A DNA stretch of 64,000 nt, taken from the NCBI GenBank assembly GCA_034663965.1, contig JAXDIO010000154.1:6872-70871 (forward strand), read 5' to 3'. Positions 49,458 to 52,033 of the stretch are shown piece by piece. Position 1 is the stretch's first letter. Every line of letters begins with the position of its first letter. The stretch is from Thermoanaerobaculia bacterium. Lineage in GTDB: Bacteria > Acidobacteriota > Thermoanaerobaculia > Gp7-AA8. The notes under the pieces were generated by a model. It made no database searches and was not told the origin of the DNA. It saw only the letters and a list, made by a program, of their open reading frames with translations. The position numbers and the translations under genes are program-made.

Positions 49458-50132
49458 TCAATGCTTCTTCAAGCGCGACTCCAGACTTCCTGTATTGATC
49501 CGAAGACGCAACGTGGTACGGCGGTTGATCGCTTCACAATCGGCCGACTCCTCGCGGCAGAGCGGGTGTGAATCAGCGTAGCCGACCGCGACGACGTTGT
49601 ATTCCGGCGATTGCAGTTGAATCGTGCGGAACTCGTAAACGACCGATGACGCGCGCCGGGCACTCAGATCCCAGTTGTACAAGAACGCATCACGGCGATC
49701 GGCGCGGCGCGACACCTGCGAGCGATCGGCGTGCCCCTCCACGATGACCTCGACGTCGGAGCGGTCGACTTGAGGAACTTGATCGAGTCCATTCTTCAAA
49801 TCGCCGCCGAGGCGGAGCAGCGCATCGCGCTCCGCGGCGCTCGTGATGTACGTGCCATTGACGGGAAAGTGGATGTAGAGATCGATGCAGGTGTCGTCGC
49901 CGCAGTCGCGAAACTTCGCGCCAAGCGCTGGTTGACGCTGAATGGCGAGCTTCAGGCGACGGTGAATGGCCTCGGCAGCTTCCCGCACCTGCGAAACCTT
50001 CACGTCGCCGGCGTGTGACTGGTATGCGGCCGATAGCAACGTCAGTCCTCCAAATGCGGCCAGGAGGAGTGCCGAGAACAGGTCGACGAATGCCGGCCAT
50101 GGGTTCGTACGCGCTCTCATCGATGCCGCCAA
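49458..50132 (-). CDS. MotB/OmpA-like protein (ZorB-like partner of the upstream ZorA-like gene)
   Basis: An N-terminal TM segment is present (WPAFVDLFSALLLAAFGG). OmpA_C-like blocks follow (IVEGHADRS, NWDLSARRASSV, VAVGYADSHP, NRRTTLRLR). It overlaps the upstream gene. Confidence 0.75.
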   Translation of the reverse strand: MAASMRARTNPWPAFVDLFSALLLAAFGGLTLLSAAYQSHAGDVKVSQVREAAEAIHRRLKLAIQRQPALGAKFRDCGDDTCIDLYIHFPVNGTYITSAAERDALLRLGGDLKNGLDQVPQVDRSDVEVIVEGHADRSQVSRRADRRDAFLYNWDLSARRASSVVYEFRTIQLQSPEYNVVAVGYADSHPLCREESADCEAINRRTTLRLRINTGSLESRLKKH

Positions 50133-52033
50133 AAGAAAAGCCAGCTCCAGAGCGTGATCTGTTTTGGCGCTTCATTCCGGCCTCGGAGCACTTCGAGGAT
50201 GCTGCCGAGGAGTTGGAGCTCTTCTGATGATCTTTCCTCCGGCGACGCCGATGCGGCGACGACAGGCGTGCGTTGGAGTTCCTGTTCCGCCGTCCGCAGT
50301 GCCTGCACGATGGAGCTCACTTCGATTCCGAGTTTCTCCATGTCGGCGCGGATGGCCGGGTAGCGATCCCGCACGAAGTCGGCAACTTCTTCGACGACCG
50401 CGGAGACTTCGCGGCGGGCAGTCTCGATTGCCGTGGCGATCGGCTCGGTGAGGCTGGCCTGCGCCCCTTCCGTCACTCGGCGCAATTCGTCCGCCGCCTC
50501 GCGCAACGCTTCGTTGGTACGCTCGACCTCCTGGCGGCTTTGGTAGACGAACTCGCTTAATTCGCGCTGCATGTCCCCATGGACGACGGTGGCGAGCCTG
50601 CGCCACTCGCCCAGCGACTCTTCCGCGAGTTTCGCGAACACCGGCTCGATCGAGCTGGCGGTCCGCTCTGCGAATGCGGCCGGCAAGTGCTCCAGATCGG
50701 CGCCGGCCGCAGCGACGGACCTTGCGATGTCCGCCGCCGTTCCGAGCGCCTGCGCCGAAGCCGTTTCGATCGTGTCGAGCGACCGTTGAAGCGGATCGGA
50801 AATCAACGTTCTACCGTCCTGCCCGAGCCGTTGCCATTCGTCGGCCGCACCGCGAACCGCCTTGTAGACGCCGGCGATGTCCTCGCCGGTTTGATGCACA
50901 AATTCCTGGTGAGCCTGACGCAGCTCGCCGCCGAGCTCCTGCGATAACGTTTCCCACGTCGCGGCGGCATCGGTCGCGAGCCGCTCGAACATCGGCCGCA
51001 TCCCGGCCACGAGTTGCTGAATCAGTTCCTCCGGCAGCCCTTCGGCCGAGGTACGCACGCGCTGCAGCACGTCCGCGATTCCGTTCGCATTCTCGACATG
51101 TTCGACGAACGACTTGCCGAGTTGGTCGAGCAACTCCTTGTGAAGCTGCTGCACGCGTTCGGTATTGGCGAGTACCTTCGGGGTGGACTTCAGCAACTCT
51201 TCCAGTCTTCGGGAGGTATTGGTCATCGCGTTCGCACTCTCGCGGAGATGCCCGGTGGCCTCGATGAAGCGTTGCGTGCTGCGATCGATCTCGCCGAACT
51301 GAAGACGGACGAGCGAGAGCGATTGATCGAGGCGTTCGCCAAGTGCCGACACGACCGGCTGAAGATGCTCGGATACGGTTTCGCCGAGCGTGCTGACCGG
51401 CCGCATCGACTCGGCGATCGACGACGCGATCGTCTCCGCGAGCGTGCGGCTGACCACGCCGCGATGCTCGAGCGCGCGCGTCGTCGCCTCGCTCGCAGCC
51501 CGGTGCAGGCGCGCGACCGGCCCTCCGAGGGCGAGCTGAAAGACGAGCATCAGCATCAGTCCTACGAATCCCACCGGGAACGCTTTGGCCATGCTCTCGG
51601 CGAGGATTCTGCCGATCTGCGCGAGCACGTCGCCCCGCACATGCATGGTTCGGGATGCGAACTCGAACACGCCGAAGAGCGTGCCGGCGATGCCGACGAG
51701 AAGGAGCATGTTGGTCCTGTCGGCGACCTCACTGATGAGGTTCTCCACCTCCGCGTCGAGGCGATCGGAGTAGTCGGTGATCGGAACGATGAAGCCGCGC
51801 TCGCCGAGGTTTGCGCTGTCGCGGATGAATCGCGAGAGGACCGCGGCGGCTCCCGTGGCATCGGCTGCCGTCGGATCCCATGTGCTCAGCGCATCCGTCT
51901 CTTCGTGTAGCCGGAGAATCGAGCGGACGAGATAGGCGACCACCACGACGTGCAGCACTCCGAACGGCCACGCGTCGAACGCGTACGAACGCAGTAGACG
52001 CGCCGCAAGCGATGCGACCGCGGCGAGACTCAT
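50117..52033 (-). CDS. ZorA-like protein: MotA/ExbB-type TM channel domain plus ~450-aa coiled-coil tail
   Basis: 638 aa. The TM helices carry the MotA/ExbB signature (NMLLLVGIAGTLFGVFEF, FPVGFVGLMLMLVFQLALGG). A long helical or coiled-coil C-terminal tail follows, which is the ZorA architecture. Confidence 0.7.
   Translation of the reverse strand: MSLAAVASLAARLLRSYAFDAWPFGVLHVVVVAYLVRSILRLHEETDALSTWDPTAADATGAAAVLSRFIRDSANLGERGFIVPITDYSDRLDAEVENLISEVADRTNMLLLVGIAGTLFGVFEFASRTMHVRGDVLAQIGRILAESMAKAFPVGFVGLMLMLVFQLALGGPVARLHRAASEATTRALEHRGVVSRTLAETIASSIAESMRPVSTLGETVSEHLQPVVSALGERLDQSLSLVRLQFGEIDRSTQRFIEATGHLRESANAMTNTSRRLEELLKSTPKVLANTERVQQLHKELLDQLGKSFVEHVENANGIADVLQRVRTSAEGLPEELIQQLVAGMRPMFERLATDAAATWETLSQELGGELRQAHQEFVHQTGEDIAGVYKAVRGAADEWQRLGQDGRTLISDPLQRSLDTIETASAQALGTAADIARSVAAAGADLEHLPAAFAERTASSIEPVFAKLAEESLGEWRRLATVVHGDMQRELSEFVYQSRQEVERTNEALREAADELRRVTEGAQASLTEPIATAIETARREVSAVVEEVADFVRDRYPAIRADMEKLGIEVSSIVQALRTAEQELQRTPVVAASASPEERSSEELQLLGSILEVLRGRNEAPKQITLWSWLFFWRHR

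What the first reader, a model, noticed from the sequence alone, without database searches (positions are those of the whole stretch)
49458..52033. Second MotA/MotB-like pair with classic ZorA architecture (MotA TM domain + long coiled-coil tail)
The 638-aa protein has MotA/ExbB-type TM helices in its first ~200 aa (GIAGTLFGVFEF; FVGLMLMLVFQLALGG). A ~450-aa highly helical tail follows. The next gene is an OmpA_C/MotB-like protein with an N-terminal TM segment. This is the ZorA/ZorB layout. The partner genes here are CHAT, ECF sigma, vWA and Hsp70-like rather than ZorC/ZorD/ZorE. That suggests a new Zorya-like type, or a different use of the stator-like sensor.
Basis: partly seen in the sequence, partly recalled or inferred. 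Interest (0 to 1): 0.72.

Follow-up and report, generated by a model that had tools for sequence, protein, structure and literature searches.

The report
ZorAB-like motor in seven-gene cassette
The two genes do encode a Zorya-type membrane motor pair with a long internal tail, but their real conserved partners are a tubulin-like GTPase, a giant Hsp70-like ATPase, a vWA-like envelope protein, a small membrane protein and often a potassium channel, and I found no description of this gene set.

Summary

The interpretation needs correcting on the partners. Six genes travel together in all 14 loci with enough sequence, down to ~25% identity, and in one locus in a different order. They are a small TM protein, a tubulin/FtsZ-like GTPase, a ~1020-aa Hsp70-like ATPase, a vWA-like exported protein, the ZorA-like protein and the ZorB-like protein. 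A K+-channel gene with an OmpA-like stretch accompanies them in about nine of those loci and the window. The CHAT and sigma genes appear only in close relatives (at least 64% identity).

The family is rare: 145 clusters among 1.84 billion representatives. PADLOC and NCBIfam have no models for the partner proteins. The most likely role is a Zorya-like envelope sensor and transducer with new cytosolic partners. That function is inferred, not shown.

The parts
50117..52033 (-). ZorA-like A subunit, 638 aa. It has three TM helices (about 22-42, 109-127, 151-169) and then a ~460-aa helical tail.
51464..52033 (-). N-terminal membrane domain of the A subunit (aa 1-190). It includes the invariant loop motif GF.VP.TD(Y/F)SDR.D between TM1 and TM2.
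   Evidence: pLDDT is 85-95. Invariant residues are listed. A profile of this domain finds only 145 clusters among 1.84 billion representatives. Distant members P0160, P0146 and P0156 hit Pfam MotA_ExbB on the same TM2-TM3 stretch at E 1e-4 to 4e-3. hhalign against the Pfam-positive MotA413 family gives E 0.01 over TM2-TM3.
50720..51046 (-). Tail repeat 1 (aa 330-438).
   Evidence: Smith-Waterman score against aa 448-556 is 141, compared with 31.7 +/- 5.8 for shuffles (z 18.8).
50366..50692 (-). Tail repeat 2 (aa 448-556).
   Evidence: Relatives vary in length by such units, from 524 to 911 aa.
49458..50132 (-). ZorB-like B subunit, 224 aa. It has one TM helix with invariant W12-P13-x3-D17, then an OmpA-like peptidoglycan-binding domain (EGH.D, NW.LS..RA, NRR) and two conserved Cys pairs.
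   Evidence: Pfam OmpA 27.7 bits. PADLOC ZorB1 E 1.8e-9 over residues 6-222. The family profile hits ZorB 8vvn_B at E 5.7e-18 over full length and EcZorB 8qyd_F at 3.7e-8; MotS, PomB and MotB match on the PG-binding domain only.
52030..53604 (-). vWA-like exported protein, 524 aa. It has an N-terminal signal anchor (lipobox-like in several orthologues), a MIDAS-type DSSGS...T...TDG motif, and many conserved Cys.
   Evidence: Alignment; TM segment. Statistical support is weak: PDB E 0.31, and Pfam VWA_CoxE in 1 of 12 members. It is collinear with the A gene in every locus that covers this position except L018, where no relative was detected between the Hsp70-like and A genes, and L020, where it lies first in the cassette.
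53562..56639 (-). Giant Hsp70-like ATPase, 1025 aa. The C-terminal ~500 aa form an Hsp70-type nucleotide-binding domain (DFGTTNT, ADMGGGTLD). The N-terminal ~490 aa are unidentified and contain an invariant C224/C227/C251 cysteine cluster.
   Evidence: Profile against PDB: DnaK E 1.2e-6, 120 matches, and all 60 listed are Hsp70-family chains. AF2 model pLDDT 88. Foldseek finds 301 hits at E <= 1e-3, best 4.7e-10; 49 of the 50 listed are Hsp70-family entries and the other (7n6g_6K, flagellar central pair) carries no protein name. There are 64 homologues, all about 1000-1050 aa and unnamed.
56641..57960 (-). Tubulin/FtsZ-like GTPase, 439 aa, with AIGGTGQ (T1-like) and IIGGTGGG (T4-like) motifs.
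   Evidence: Alignment. PDB profile: the three best matches are FtsZ (E 0.028) over the T3-T4 region, with TubZ and further FtsZ chains lower at E ~0.7 among unrelated hits. Pfam Tubulin_2 matches 7 of 10 members (best 1.2e-4) and Tubulin 6 of 10 (1.3e-4).
57954..58562 (-). Small polytopic membrane protein, up to 202 aa (the true start is probably later).
   Evidence: Three to four hydrophobic segments. Relatives were found in 11 of 12 compared loci by blastp, and a small TM protein also sits at this position in L019 and L020. No family hit.
58480..59991 (-). K+-channel protein, 503 aa. It has N-terminal TM segments, an OmpA-like stretch (aa ~299-364), then the pore helix, TTTGYGD filter and inner helix. 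It is a frequent but not universal member of the cassette.
   Evidence: Pfam Ion_trans_2 E 1.3e-12. NCBIfam type_VI_ompA / MotB-like, E 1e-4. It is present next to the cassette in L001, L002, L004, L005, L010, L013, L016 and L017 at varying positions.
48035..49450 (-). CHAT protease-like protein, 471 aa. It starts 7 nt after the B gene. It is a clade-specific addition, not part of the conserved core.
   Evidence: Pfam CHAT E 3.4e-24. Present after the B gene in L015 (85% identity) and L016 (64%), and absent in L017, L001, L002, L019 and L020.
43122..47947 (-). Clade-specific module of three genes: a sigma-70/ECF-like protein (47111-47947), a zf-HC2 + TPR + CHAT protein of 1081 aa (43869-47114), and a 242-aa protein (43122-43850).
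   Evidence: Pfam. NCBIfam sigma70-ECF 34.6 bits, below the cut-off of 42.9. Syntenic only in L015 and L016.

Best explanation
The two genes encode a ZorAB-type, peptidoglycan-anchored, ion-driven stator-like complex. By homology the assembly is probably A5B2.

How the pair is built. The A subunit has the three-TM ExbB/TolQ/ZorA fold and carries a ~460-residue cytoplasmic helical tail built partly from a duplicated ~110-residue unit. The B subunit has the channel aspartate (D17) in its single TM helix and an OmpA-like peptidoglycan-binding domain in the periplasm.

The cassette. The pair is the membrane module of a conserved accessory cassette of six genes, often seven. The others are a small TM protein, a tubulin/FtsZ-like GTPase, a ~1020-aa Hsp70-like ATPase, an exported vWA-like protein, and often a K+ channel with an OmpA-like stretch.

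Proposed mechanism, by analogy with Zorya; every step is inferred:
1. A disturbance of the envelope is registered in the periplasm by the B subunit's peptidoglycan-binding domain, possibly together with the vWA-like protein.
2. Ion flow then drives the A pentamer and its tail.
3. The tail recruits or activates the cytosolic tubulin-like GTPase and the Hsp70-like ATPase.
4. The K+ channel is a plausible output that dissipates membrane potential.

The likely biological role is defence or conflict (anti-phage or envelope-attack response).

What is shown: gene structure, folds, motifs and gene linkage. What is inferred: stoichiometry, ion coupling, the signal path, and the defence role.
For: A subunit:
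- Foldseek's top 36 hits are the same families.
- Three TM segments.
- The TM2 motif VGIAGT.FG aligns with TolQ's IGLFGTVWG and with LGLLGTFIGL of a Pfam-positive MotA_ExbB family.
- Distant family members reach Pfam MotA_ExbB at up to 22.4 bits on that same stretch.

B subunit:
- The best solved relative is a type I ZorB over its full length, TM included (E 5.7e-18). EcZorB also matches with its TM.
- D17 and the NW.LS..RA, EGH.D and NRR motifs are invariant in 14 sequences.

Linkage:
- The six gene families co-occur in all 14 loci with enough sequence, down to about 25% identity (L019), and in permuted order in L020.
- Genes overlap by a few nt or lie 1 nt apart.

Partner identities.

Accessory character:
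- 11 loci among 185,579 species genomes.
- 145 clusters among 1.84 billion representatives.
- Neighbours include TIR, STAND, CHAT, toxin-antitoxin-type genes (HEPN / nucleotidyltransferase), a transposase, Uma2, and Upf1-like helicases.

Published Zorya mechanism, used for the analogy: PMC11946911.
Against: - There is no experimental datum for this family.
- No recognisable nuclease or other classic effector is in the conserved core.
- Curated ZorA and ZorB models are far below cut-off: NCBIfam ZorA_3 24.9 against 250, and ZorB2 21.9 against 400. PADLOC's ZorA hits lie only in the tail and are probably compositional.
- The tail model has low confidence (pLDDT 35-70). It is interrupted at conserved Pro/Gly positions, so it may be a folded helical bundle rather than a Zorya-like long rod.
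- The model shows no cytoplasmic beta-hairpin of the kind described as Zorya-specific.
- One locus (L017) has ordinary envelope and metabolic neighbours.
- Ten of the 11 genome loci are Acidobacteriota-lineage MAGs. This leaves room for a lineage-specific cell-biology role.
- The vWA assignment rests mostly on a motif.
Confidence: 0.55

Rival explanations
1. The cassette is an envelope or cytoskeletal 'membrane-remodelling' machine of the kind Makarova and Koonin proposed in 2010 for FtsZ-like-1 / vWA / OmpA operons. On this reading the stator-like pair supplies proton-motive energy to a tubulin-like polymer and an actin-fold ATPase. The purpose would be vesicle formation, envelope maintenance, surface motility or differentiation, not immunity.
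For: - The cassette contains a tubulin/FtsZ-superfamily GTPase, a vWA-like exported protein and a MotB/OmpA protein.
- The 2010 supplementary tables list vWA-FtsZl1-B7(~545-aa membrane protein)-MotB operons in cyanobacteria. They also list FtsZl1-MotA/TolQ/ExbB-OmpA in Deinococcus, and a DnaK-like giant next to vWA genes in Magnetospirillum.
- L017 has envelope-biogenesis neighbours (LpxR, epimerases).
- From general knowledge: the Agl/Glt gliding motor of Myxococcus also couples a TolQR-type motor to a cytoskeletal ATPase.
Against: - The tubulin-like protein here is 439 aa. It lacks the coiled coil and C-terminal domain that define FtsZl1.
- The cassette is very rare and patchy, which fits an accessory function better than core cell biology.
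- Several loci sit among defence, toxin-antitoxin or mobile genes.
- The membrane-remodelling idea was itself only a prediction.
Confidence: 0.27
2. In this genome the real output of the ZorAB-like sensor is the adjacent CHAT protease, working with the sigma / anti-sigma-TPR-CHAT pair. This is the first reader's reading: a Zorya-like sensor coupled to caspase-like effectors.
For: - The CHAT471 gene starts 7 nt after the B gene, and overlaps it by 4 nt in L016.
- The arrangement is kept at 85% and 64% identity.
- CHAT proteases are effectors in other defence systems; PADLOC SAVED_CHAT hit E 8e-12.
Against: - The CHAT, sigma-like and TPR-CHAT genes are absent from every locus at 54% identity or less (L017, L001, L002, L019, L020). 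They were not detected in the other genome loci.
- At most they are a lineage-specific add-on.
- Synteny at 64-85% identity may only reflect shared ancestry of the whole island, since the nSTAND3 system on the other side is kept too.
Confidence: 0.12
3. The pair is a conventional TolQ/TolR, ExbB/ExbD or flagellar MotA/MotB system.
Against: - The B subunit is OmpA-like with MotB/ZorB motifs, not TolR/ExbD-like.
- The A subunit has a 460-aa tail, which the solved ExbB and TolQ chains (215-236 aa) do not have.
- The conserved neighbours are the five cassette genes. No further conserved neighbour emerged in the 12 loci compared, and no TolA/TolB/Pal/TonB or flagellar domain is annotated in the five loci with Pfam calls.
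Confidence: 0.02
4. The pair is a bona fide member of Zorya type I, II or III whose effectors were simply not recognised.
For: The layout is ZorAB-like. The best solved relatives are ZorA and ZorB.
Against: - There is no PADLOC hit to ZorC, D, E, F or G among the ten neighbours.
- The ZorA and ZorB curated cut-offs are missed by an order of magnitude.
- The conserved partners belong to other families.
Confidence: 0.04

Closest known systems
Zorya anti-phage system core, ZorA5B2 (Hu et al. 2024, PMC11946911; Mariano et al. 2025, PMC11890865; PDB 8qyd, 8vvn, 8vvi)
   Same: - The A subunit has three TM helices of the ExbB/TolQ fold followed by a several-hundred-residue cytoplasmic helical tail.
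- The B subunit has a TM aspartate and an OmpA-like peptidoglycan-binding domain.
- Both have two conserved Cys pairs in the periplasmic part; ZorB has two disulfides.
- The A and B genes are adjacent and overlapping.
- The best structural match (A) and best profile match (B) among solved structures are Zorya proteins.
   Different: - None of the known effectors is present (ZorC/ZorD, ZorE, ZorF/ZorG).
- The partners are a tubulin-like GTPase, an Hsp70-like ATPase, a vWA-like exported protein, a small TM protein and a K+ channel.
- Sequence models of ZorA and ZorB are not reached.
- The tail contains a tandem ~110-aa repeat and conserved helix breaks.
- No Zorya-type cytoplasmic beta-hairpin appears in the model.
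- Anti-phage activity is untested.
FtsZ-like-1 / vWA / OmpA(MotB) predicted membrane-remodelling operons (Makarova and Koonin 2010, PMC2875224)
   Same: - A divergent tubulin/FtsZ-superfamily gene co-occurs with a vWA protein and a MotB/OmpA-family protein.
- Some of those operons also carry a MotA/TolQ/ExbB protein or an uncharacterised ~545-aa membrane protein (B7) just upstream of the MotB gene.
- A DnaK-like giant lies next to vWA genes in one genome.
   Different: - FtsZl1 proteins are about 1000-1150 aa with a coiled coil and a C-terminal helical domain. The tubulin-like protein here is about 440 aa without them.
- The Hsp70-like giant is a fixed member here.
- The 2010 paper read the OmpA proteins as outer-membrane proteins and did not recognise a stator pair.
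- Whether B7 is related to this A family was not tested.
ExbB-ExbD and TolQ-TolR 5:2 motors (PDB 5sv0, 6ye4, 9kpz)
   Different: - The B subunit is OmpA-like rather than ExbD/TolR-like.
- The A subunit has a long tail.
- No TonB/TolA/Pal partner turned up among the conserved neighbours.
The first stator-like pair in the same window (36411-38329, +), with a TIR gene upstream and an nSTAND3 NTPase downstream
   Same: It is also a MotA/ExbB-family A subunit plus an OmpA-type B subunit, in the same island. hhalign aligns the TM2-TM3 cores of the two A families at E 0.01.
   Different: - That pair is much closer to Zorya by sequence: ZorB1 E 3.8e-27, and its ZorA hits fall on the TM region.
- Its A subunit is only 413 aa.
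- It has different partners.

Membership tests
Zorya (ZorAB core) | A subunit with three TM helices of the ExbB/TolQ/ZorA fold | tested here: met
Zorya (ZorAB core) | Long C-terminal cytoplasmic helical tail on the A subunit (EcZorA residues 223-729) | tested here: met
   Residues ~175-638 are predicted helical. Geometry is uncertain: pLDDT 35-70, several conserved breaks, and an internal repeat.
Zorya (ZorAB core) | Recognition by curated ZorA sequence models | tested here: not met
   NCBIfam antiphage_ZorA_3 scores 24.9 bits against a cut-off of 250, and ZorA_4 gives E 0.016. PADLOC ZorA hits (E ~1e-7) cover only tail positions.
Zorya (ZorAB core) | Membrane-proximal cytoplasmic domain with a beta-hairpin and a Ca2+ site (E86/E89 in EcZorA) | tested here: inconclusive
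   No strand appears between TM1 and TM2 in the monomer model. An invariant acidic motif TD(Y/F)SDR.D (D87, D90) lies in that loop. Metal binding was not tested.
Zorya (ZorAB core) | B subunit with a conserved Asp in its single TM helix | tested here: met
   W12, P13 and D17 are invariant in 14 sequences. The profile aligns with the TM regions of ZorB 8vvn_B and 8qyd_F.
Zorya (ZorAB core) | B subunit with an OmpA-like peptidoglycan-binding domain | tested here: met
   Pfam OmpA 27.7 against 27.2 bits. NW.LS..RA, EGH.D and NRR are invariant. PDB profile hits: ZorB 5.7e-18, MotS 1.7e-16, PomB 5e-13.
Zorya (ZorAB core) | Recognition by curated ZorB sequence models | tested here: not met
   NCBIfam anti-phage_ZorB2 scores 21.9 against a cut-off of 400. 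PADLOC ZorB1 gives E 1.8e-9 over full length, but no threshold is available.
Zorya (ZorAB core) | A5B2 assembly and ion-driven rotation | not testable with these tools
   No multimer prediction was available. This is inferred from homology only.
Zorya types I-III | Adjacent effector genes: ZorC+ZorD, ZorE, or ZorF+ZorG | tested here: not met
   No PADLOC hit to any of them among ten neighbours. The conserved neighbours are other families.
Zorya types I-III | Protection against phage | not testable with these tools
   This needs an experiment.
TolQR / ExbBD | B subunit of TolR/ExbD type, with TolA/TolB/Pal or TonB neighbours | tested here: not met
   The B subunit is OmpA/MotB-like. The neighbourhoods of 14 loci show the cassette genes instead; no other neighbour is conserved, and the five loci with Pfam calls list no such domain.
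Flagellar MotAB / PomAB | Four-TM A subunit with a torque-generating cytoplasmic domain, in a flagellar gene context | tested here: not met
FtsZl1-centred system (Makarova and Koonin 2010) | A tubulin/FtsZ-superfamily GTPase in the operon | tested here: met
   Pfam Tubulin_2 matches 7 of 10 members (best 1.2e-4) and Tubulin 6 of 10. FtsZ heads the PDB profile search at E 0.028, aligned on the T3-T4 region. All scores are below the gathering threshold.
FtsZl1-centred system (Makarova and Koonin 2010) | FtsZl1 architecture: N-terminal FtsZ-like domain, extended coiled coil and helical C-terminal domain, about 1000 aa or more | tested here: not met
   The protein is 438-453 aa in most loci and 515 aa in L020, with no coiled-coil part.
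FtsZl1-centred system (Makarova and Koonin 2010) | vWA protein with an intact MIDAS motif | tested here: inconclusive
   D.S.S ... T ... D is conserved. Family-level scores are weak: PDB E 0.31, and Pfam VWA_CoxE in 1 of 12 members.

The most novel reading that the evidence does not exclude
This is an undescribed class of envelope-spanning system. A Zorya-type ion-driven rotary sensor is wired not to nucleases but to a tubulin-like GTPase and a giant Hsp70-like ATPase, with a periplasmic vWA-like protein as co-sensor and a peptidoglycan-tethered K+ channel as output. It would be a new immune (abortive-infection or envelope-attack) mechanism that links a stator motor to cytoskeleton- and chaperone-type NTPases. 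It might also unify the unexplained FtsZ-like/vWA/MotB operons reported in 2010.
Probability: 0.4. Interest if true: 0.85.

Novelty: new variant of a known kind. Interest (0 to 1): 0.7.

Why it matters
Zorya showed that a flagellar-stator-type motor can act as an infection sensor that signals through a long tail. So far only three effector sets are known, and the two whose outputs have been studied (types I and II) use nuclease-type effectors.

A deeply conserved cassette that joins the same kind of motor to a tubulin-like GTPase, an Hsp70-like ATPase, a vWA-like protein and a K+ channel would widen what such motors can control. It would also offer a concrete system for asking how tail rotation is read out in the cytoplasm.

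It gives a testable function to tubulin-like and Hsp70-like proteins that have no assigned role. It may also explain the FtsZ-like/vWA/OmpA operons noted in 2010 and still unexplained in the literature I could search.

Tried and rejected
- Single-sequence Pfam, PDB and NCBIfam searches of the A protein gave only coiled-coil or apolipoprotein-type tail matches.
- A full-length family profile against PDB was again dominated by the tail. Its only relevant hit was a tail-to-tail match to ZorA 8vvn_C at E 0.004.
- An N-terminal-only profile against PDB found nothing meaningful.
- hhalign of that profile against a single TolQ sequence was not significant, although it did align the TM2 motif.
- The promoter and terminator scan of 43000-62500 found no more sites than shuffles give.
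- The AFDB50 structure library was unavailable.
- A viral-contig scan found no relatives.
- Literature searches for ZorA-like / Zorya-like wording, and for Zorya together with tubulin, vWA or MotB, found no description of this cassette.
- Conventional TolQR/ExbBD was considered and rejected (OmpA-type B subunit, tail, neighbours).
- A flagellar stator was considered and rejected (three TM segments, lower Z, no flagellar context).
- CHAT and sigma as core partners were considered and rejected (absent at 54% identity or less).
- The N-terminal ~490 residues of the Hsp70-like protein could not be assigned.

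
Full report
**The observation**

On the minus strand, ORF 50117-52033 (638 aa) is followed by ORF 49458-50132 (224 aa), and the two overlap.

The A protein has three hydrophobic segments at about 22-42, 109-127 and 151-169. The B protein has one, at 15-33.

I built an alignment of 30 family members and used it for an AlphaFold2 model. Residues 1-190 have pLDDT 85-95. Almost everything from residue 136 to 637 is helical, but with low confidence (pLDDT 35-70) and with breaks at conserved Pro/Gly positions.

The B protein reaches the Pfam OmpA gathering score, 27.7 against 27.2 bits.

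**Is the A protein a MotA/ExbB/ZorA-type subunit?**

Sequence alone barely sees it.
- The window protein has no Pfam MotA_ExbB hit.
- PADLOC's ZorA hits (E ~1e-7) and the NCBIfam ZorA_3 hit fall in the tail.
- A full-length profile against PDB is dominated by apolipoprotein-like coiled coils.
- An N-terminal profile finds nothing in PDB.

Structure is clear.
- Foldseek's first 36 PDB hits are all ExbB, TolQ or ZorA.

Three weaker sequence links agree with this.
- The N-terminal profile was searched against 1.84 billion representatives. Distant members it recovered (P0160, P0146, P0156) hit Pfam MotA_ExbB on exactly the TM2-TM3 stretch, at up to 22.4 bits against a cut-off of 22.9.
- hhalign against the Pfam-positive family of the window's first MotA-like protein aligns TM2-TM3 at E 0.01. 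VGIAGTLFGV pairs with LGLLGTFIGL, and KAFPVGFVGL pairs with KTAFSTTLVGL.
- TolQ's TM2 motif aligns in the same place.

I take the superfamily assignment as secure. Its class is three-TM (ExbB/TolQ/ZorA), not four-TM MotA.

**The B protein**

In 14 orthologues, W12, P13 and D17 in the TM helix are invariant. So are EGH.D, NW.LS..RA and NRR. Two Cys pairs are invariant or nearly so.

The family profile's best match among all solved structures is the ZorB of a type I ZorAB complex (8vvn_B). The match has E 5.7e-18 and aligns residues 5-219 with 16-236, so it includes the TM helix. EcZorB (8qyd_F) also aligns from the TM helix. MotS, PomB and MotB match only on the peptidoglycan-binding domain.

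Curated models are not reached: NCBIfam ZorB2 scores 21.9 against 400.

**The tail**

It is about 460 residues long.
- Residues 330-438 and 448-556 are a tandem repeat. The Smith-Waterman score is 141 against 31.7 +/- 5.8 for shuffles.
- Relatives differ in length, from 524 to 911 aa. In L004 the extra length is an additional copy of this region.
- Hydrophobic periodicity is near 3.6-3.67. This fits amphipathic helices or hendecad coiled coils but does not decide between them.
- The C-terminus is aromatic and basic in most members.

Whether the tail is a Zorya-like long pentameric rod or a folded bundle remains open.

**The surroundings**

I mapped the window's proteins onto loci recovered from genomes and metagenomes. 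Six families always travel together: a small TM protein, a ~440-aa protein, a ~1020-aa protein, a ~520-aa protein, the A subunit and the B subunit.

This holds in a version with only about 25-37% identity (L019). Its 524-aa A subunit is the one that nearly reaches the Pfam MotA_ExbB threshold. It also holds in L020, where the order is permuted to vWA-like, TM, tubulin-like, Hsp70-like, A, B. The one exception is the short locus L018, where no vWA-like gene lies between the Hsp70-like and A genes.

A K+-channel gene with the TTTGYGD filter lies beside the cassette, at varying positions, in about nine loci.

The CHAT, sigma-like and TPR-CHAT genes follow the B gene only in relatives at 85% and 64% identity. 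They are absent at 54%, 44%, 30% and 25%.

**Partner identities**

- The ~440-aa family is a divergent tubulin/FtsZ-superfamily protein. Its motifs are AIGGTGQ and IIGGTGGG. FtsZ heads the PDB profile search (E 0.028, aligned over T3-T4), with TubZ lower at E 0.69. Pfam Tubulin_2 matches 7 of 10 members and Tubulin 6 of 10, best E ~1e-4.
- The ~1020-aa family has an Hsp70-type nucleotide-binding domain in its C-terminal half. Its motifs are DFGTTNT and DMGGGT.D. The profile against PDB gives E 1.2e-6 with 120 matches, and all 60 listed are Hsp70-family chains. The AF2 model has pLDDT 88. Foldseek's best E is 4.7e-10, with 301 hits at E <= 1e-3; 49 of the 50 listed are Hsp70-family entries. Its N-terminal ~490 residues, with a conserved cysteine cluster, remain unassigned.
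- The ~520-aa family has a signal anchor or lipobox, many conserved cysteines and a D.S.S...T...D MIDAS-type motif. Its statistical support as a vWA domain is weak.
- The channel protein combines Ion_trans_2 with an OmpA-like stretch.

**Distribution and context**

The family is rare.
- 41 word-indexed homologues.
- 11 loci among 185,579 species genomes. Ten are MAGs of the Acidobacteriota lineage (Thermoanaerobaculia, Pyrinomonadaceae, Terriglobia, Chloracidobacterium and others) and one is labelled Bacteroidetes.
- 145 clusters among 1.84 billion representatives.
- None on viral contigs.

In the window the cassette lies in an island. A type VI secretion cluster occupies 0.1-29 kb. At 35.7-43 kb there is a TIR gene, a second and more Zorya-like stator pair, and an nSTAND3 NTPase. 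The CHAT genes are also in this island.

Other loci carry toxin-antitoxin-type genes, a transposase, Uma2 or Upf1-like helicase neighbours. L017 has ordinary envelope genes.

**Mechanism**

The published Zorya model (PMC11946911) runs as follows. ZorA5B2 anchors to peptidoglycan through ZorB. Ion flow past Asp26 turns ZorA and its tail. The tail recruits ZorC and ZorD.

The features that model depends on are the three-TM A fold, the tail, the TM Asp and the peptidoglycan-binding domain. All are present here.

I therefore propose the same logic with different readers of the tail, namely the tubulin-like GTPase and the Hsp70-like ATPase. The vWA-like protein would act as a periplasmic partner and the K+ channel as a possible output. 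Only the parts list and its linkage are shown. Stoichiometry, ion coupling, the signal path and the biological role are inferred.

The main rival is a non-immune envelope or cytoskeletal machine, as proposed for FtsZl1/vWA/OmpA operons (PMC2875224). The supplementary tables of that paper already list vWA-FtsZl1-B7-MotB and FtsZl1-MotA-OmpA gene orders. The tubulin-like protein here lacks the FtsZl1 architecture. Rarity and patchiness favour an accessory role, but this rival is not excluded.

**Novelty**

PADLOC v2 (2023) and NCBIfam release 20 (June 2026) have no model for the small TM or tubulin-like proteins. PADLOC also has none for the Hsp70-like or vWA-like proteins. NCBIfam gives the Hsp70-like protein only sub-threshold chaperone and MreB hits, and gives the vWA-like protein nothing.

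Literature searches found no description of this cassette. The reviews and papers on Zorya that I read list only types I-III.

I class it as a new variant of a known kind: a ZorAB-type module with a new, deeply conserved partner set.

Noticed in passing
window 35693-43069 (+): This is the 'first' stator-like system. It has a TIR-domain gene (35693-36400; Pfam TIR_2 E 1.4e-13), a MotA/ExbB-family protein of 413 aa (Pfam 24.6 bits; PADLOC ZorA hits on the TM region), and a MotB/ZorB-like protein of 226 aa (PADLOC ZorB1 E 3.8e-27). Two unassigned genes of 313 and 425 aa follow, then an 841-aa nSTAND3 NTPase. By sequence it is closer to Zorya than the pair studied here. Its gene sizes match the MotA(411)/OmpA(200) pair listed next to FtsZl1 in Deinococcus in 2010.
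   Followed up: partly
window 58480-59991 (-): A K+-channel protein whose OmpA/TssL-like peptidoglycan-binding stretch (aa ~299-364) lies between the N-terminal TM segments and the pore helix with its TTTGYGD filter. A peptidoglycan-tethered K+ channel seems an unusual architecture. The topology was not resolved.
   Followed up: partly
window 125-29000: A type VI secretion cluster: TssA (ImpA_N), TssC (VipB), TssF, TssG, ClpV-like AAA+, an SLT transglycosylase and VgrG (26851-28908). Directly upstream of VgrG is a 1495-aa protein with 11 TIG repeats and a PLD phospholipase domain (22331-26818), probably an effector.
   Followed up: no
window 43122-49450 (-): A CHAT protease (471 aa), a sigma-70/ECF-like protein (below the NCBIfam cut-off), an anti-sigma-type zf-HC2 + TPR + CHAT protein (1081 aa) and an unassigned 242-aa protein form a module. 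It is conserved only in close relatives (L015, L016). The first CHAT gene starts 7 nt after the ZorB-like gene.
   Followed up: partly
window 60271-61209 (-): A 312-aa protein with a weak Nal1_C (serine-protease-like) hit lies upstream of the cassette. A 315-aa homologue with the same faint hit holds the same position in L016.
   Followed up: no
window 50366-51046 (-): The ZorA-like tail contains a tandem duplication of a ~110-residue unit (z 18.8 against shuffles). Family members differ in length, 524-911 aa. In L004 the extra length is an additional copy of this region, which suggests the tail length is tuned in modules.
   Followed up: yes
window 51755-51793 (-), aa 81-93 of the A protein: An invariant acidic loop motif F.VP.TD(Y/F)SDR.D lies between TM1 and TM2. 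D87 and D90 have the same spacing and nearly the same numbering as the Ca2+-binding E86/E89 of E. coli ZorA. It may be an equivalent metal site, but this is untested.
   Followed up: no
L020 1-1812 and 11563-12717: The permuted distant version of the cassette sits between a ~2050-aa DUF4011/AAA_11/AAA_12/MTES_1575/DUF3320 helicase and an unassigned 384-aa protein. The former looks like a defence-island-type neighbour.
   Followed up: no
window 61450-62253 (-) and 15688-17289 (-): A weak RHS-repeat hit lies at the right end of the island. A protein-lysine-methyltransferase-like gene (MethyTransf_Reg, PKMT_2nd) lies after the T6SS genes.
   Followed up: no
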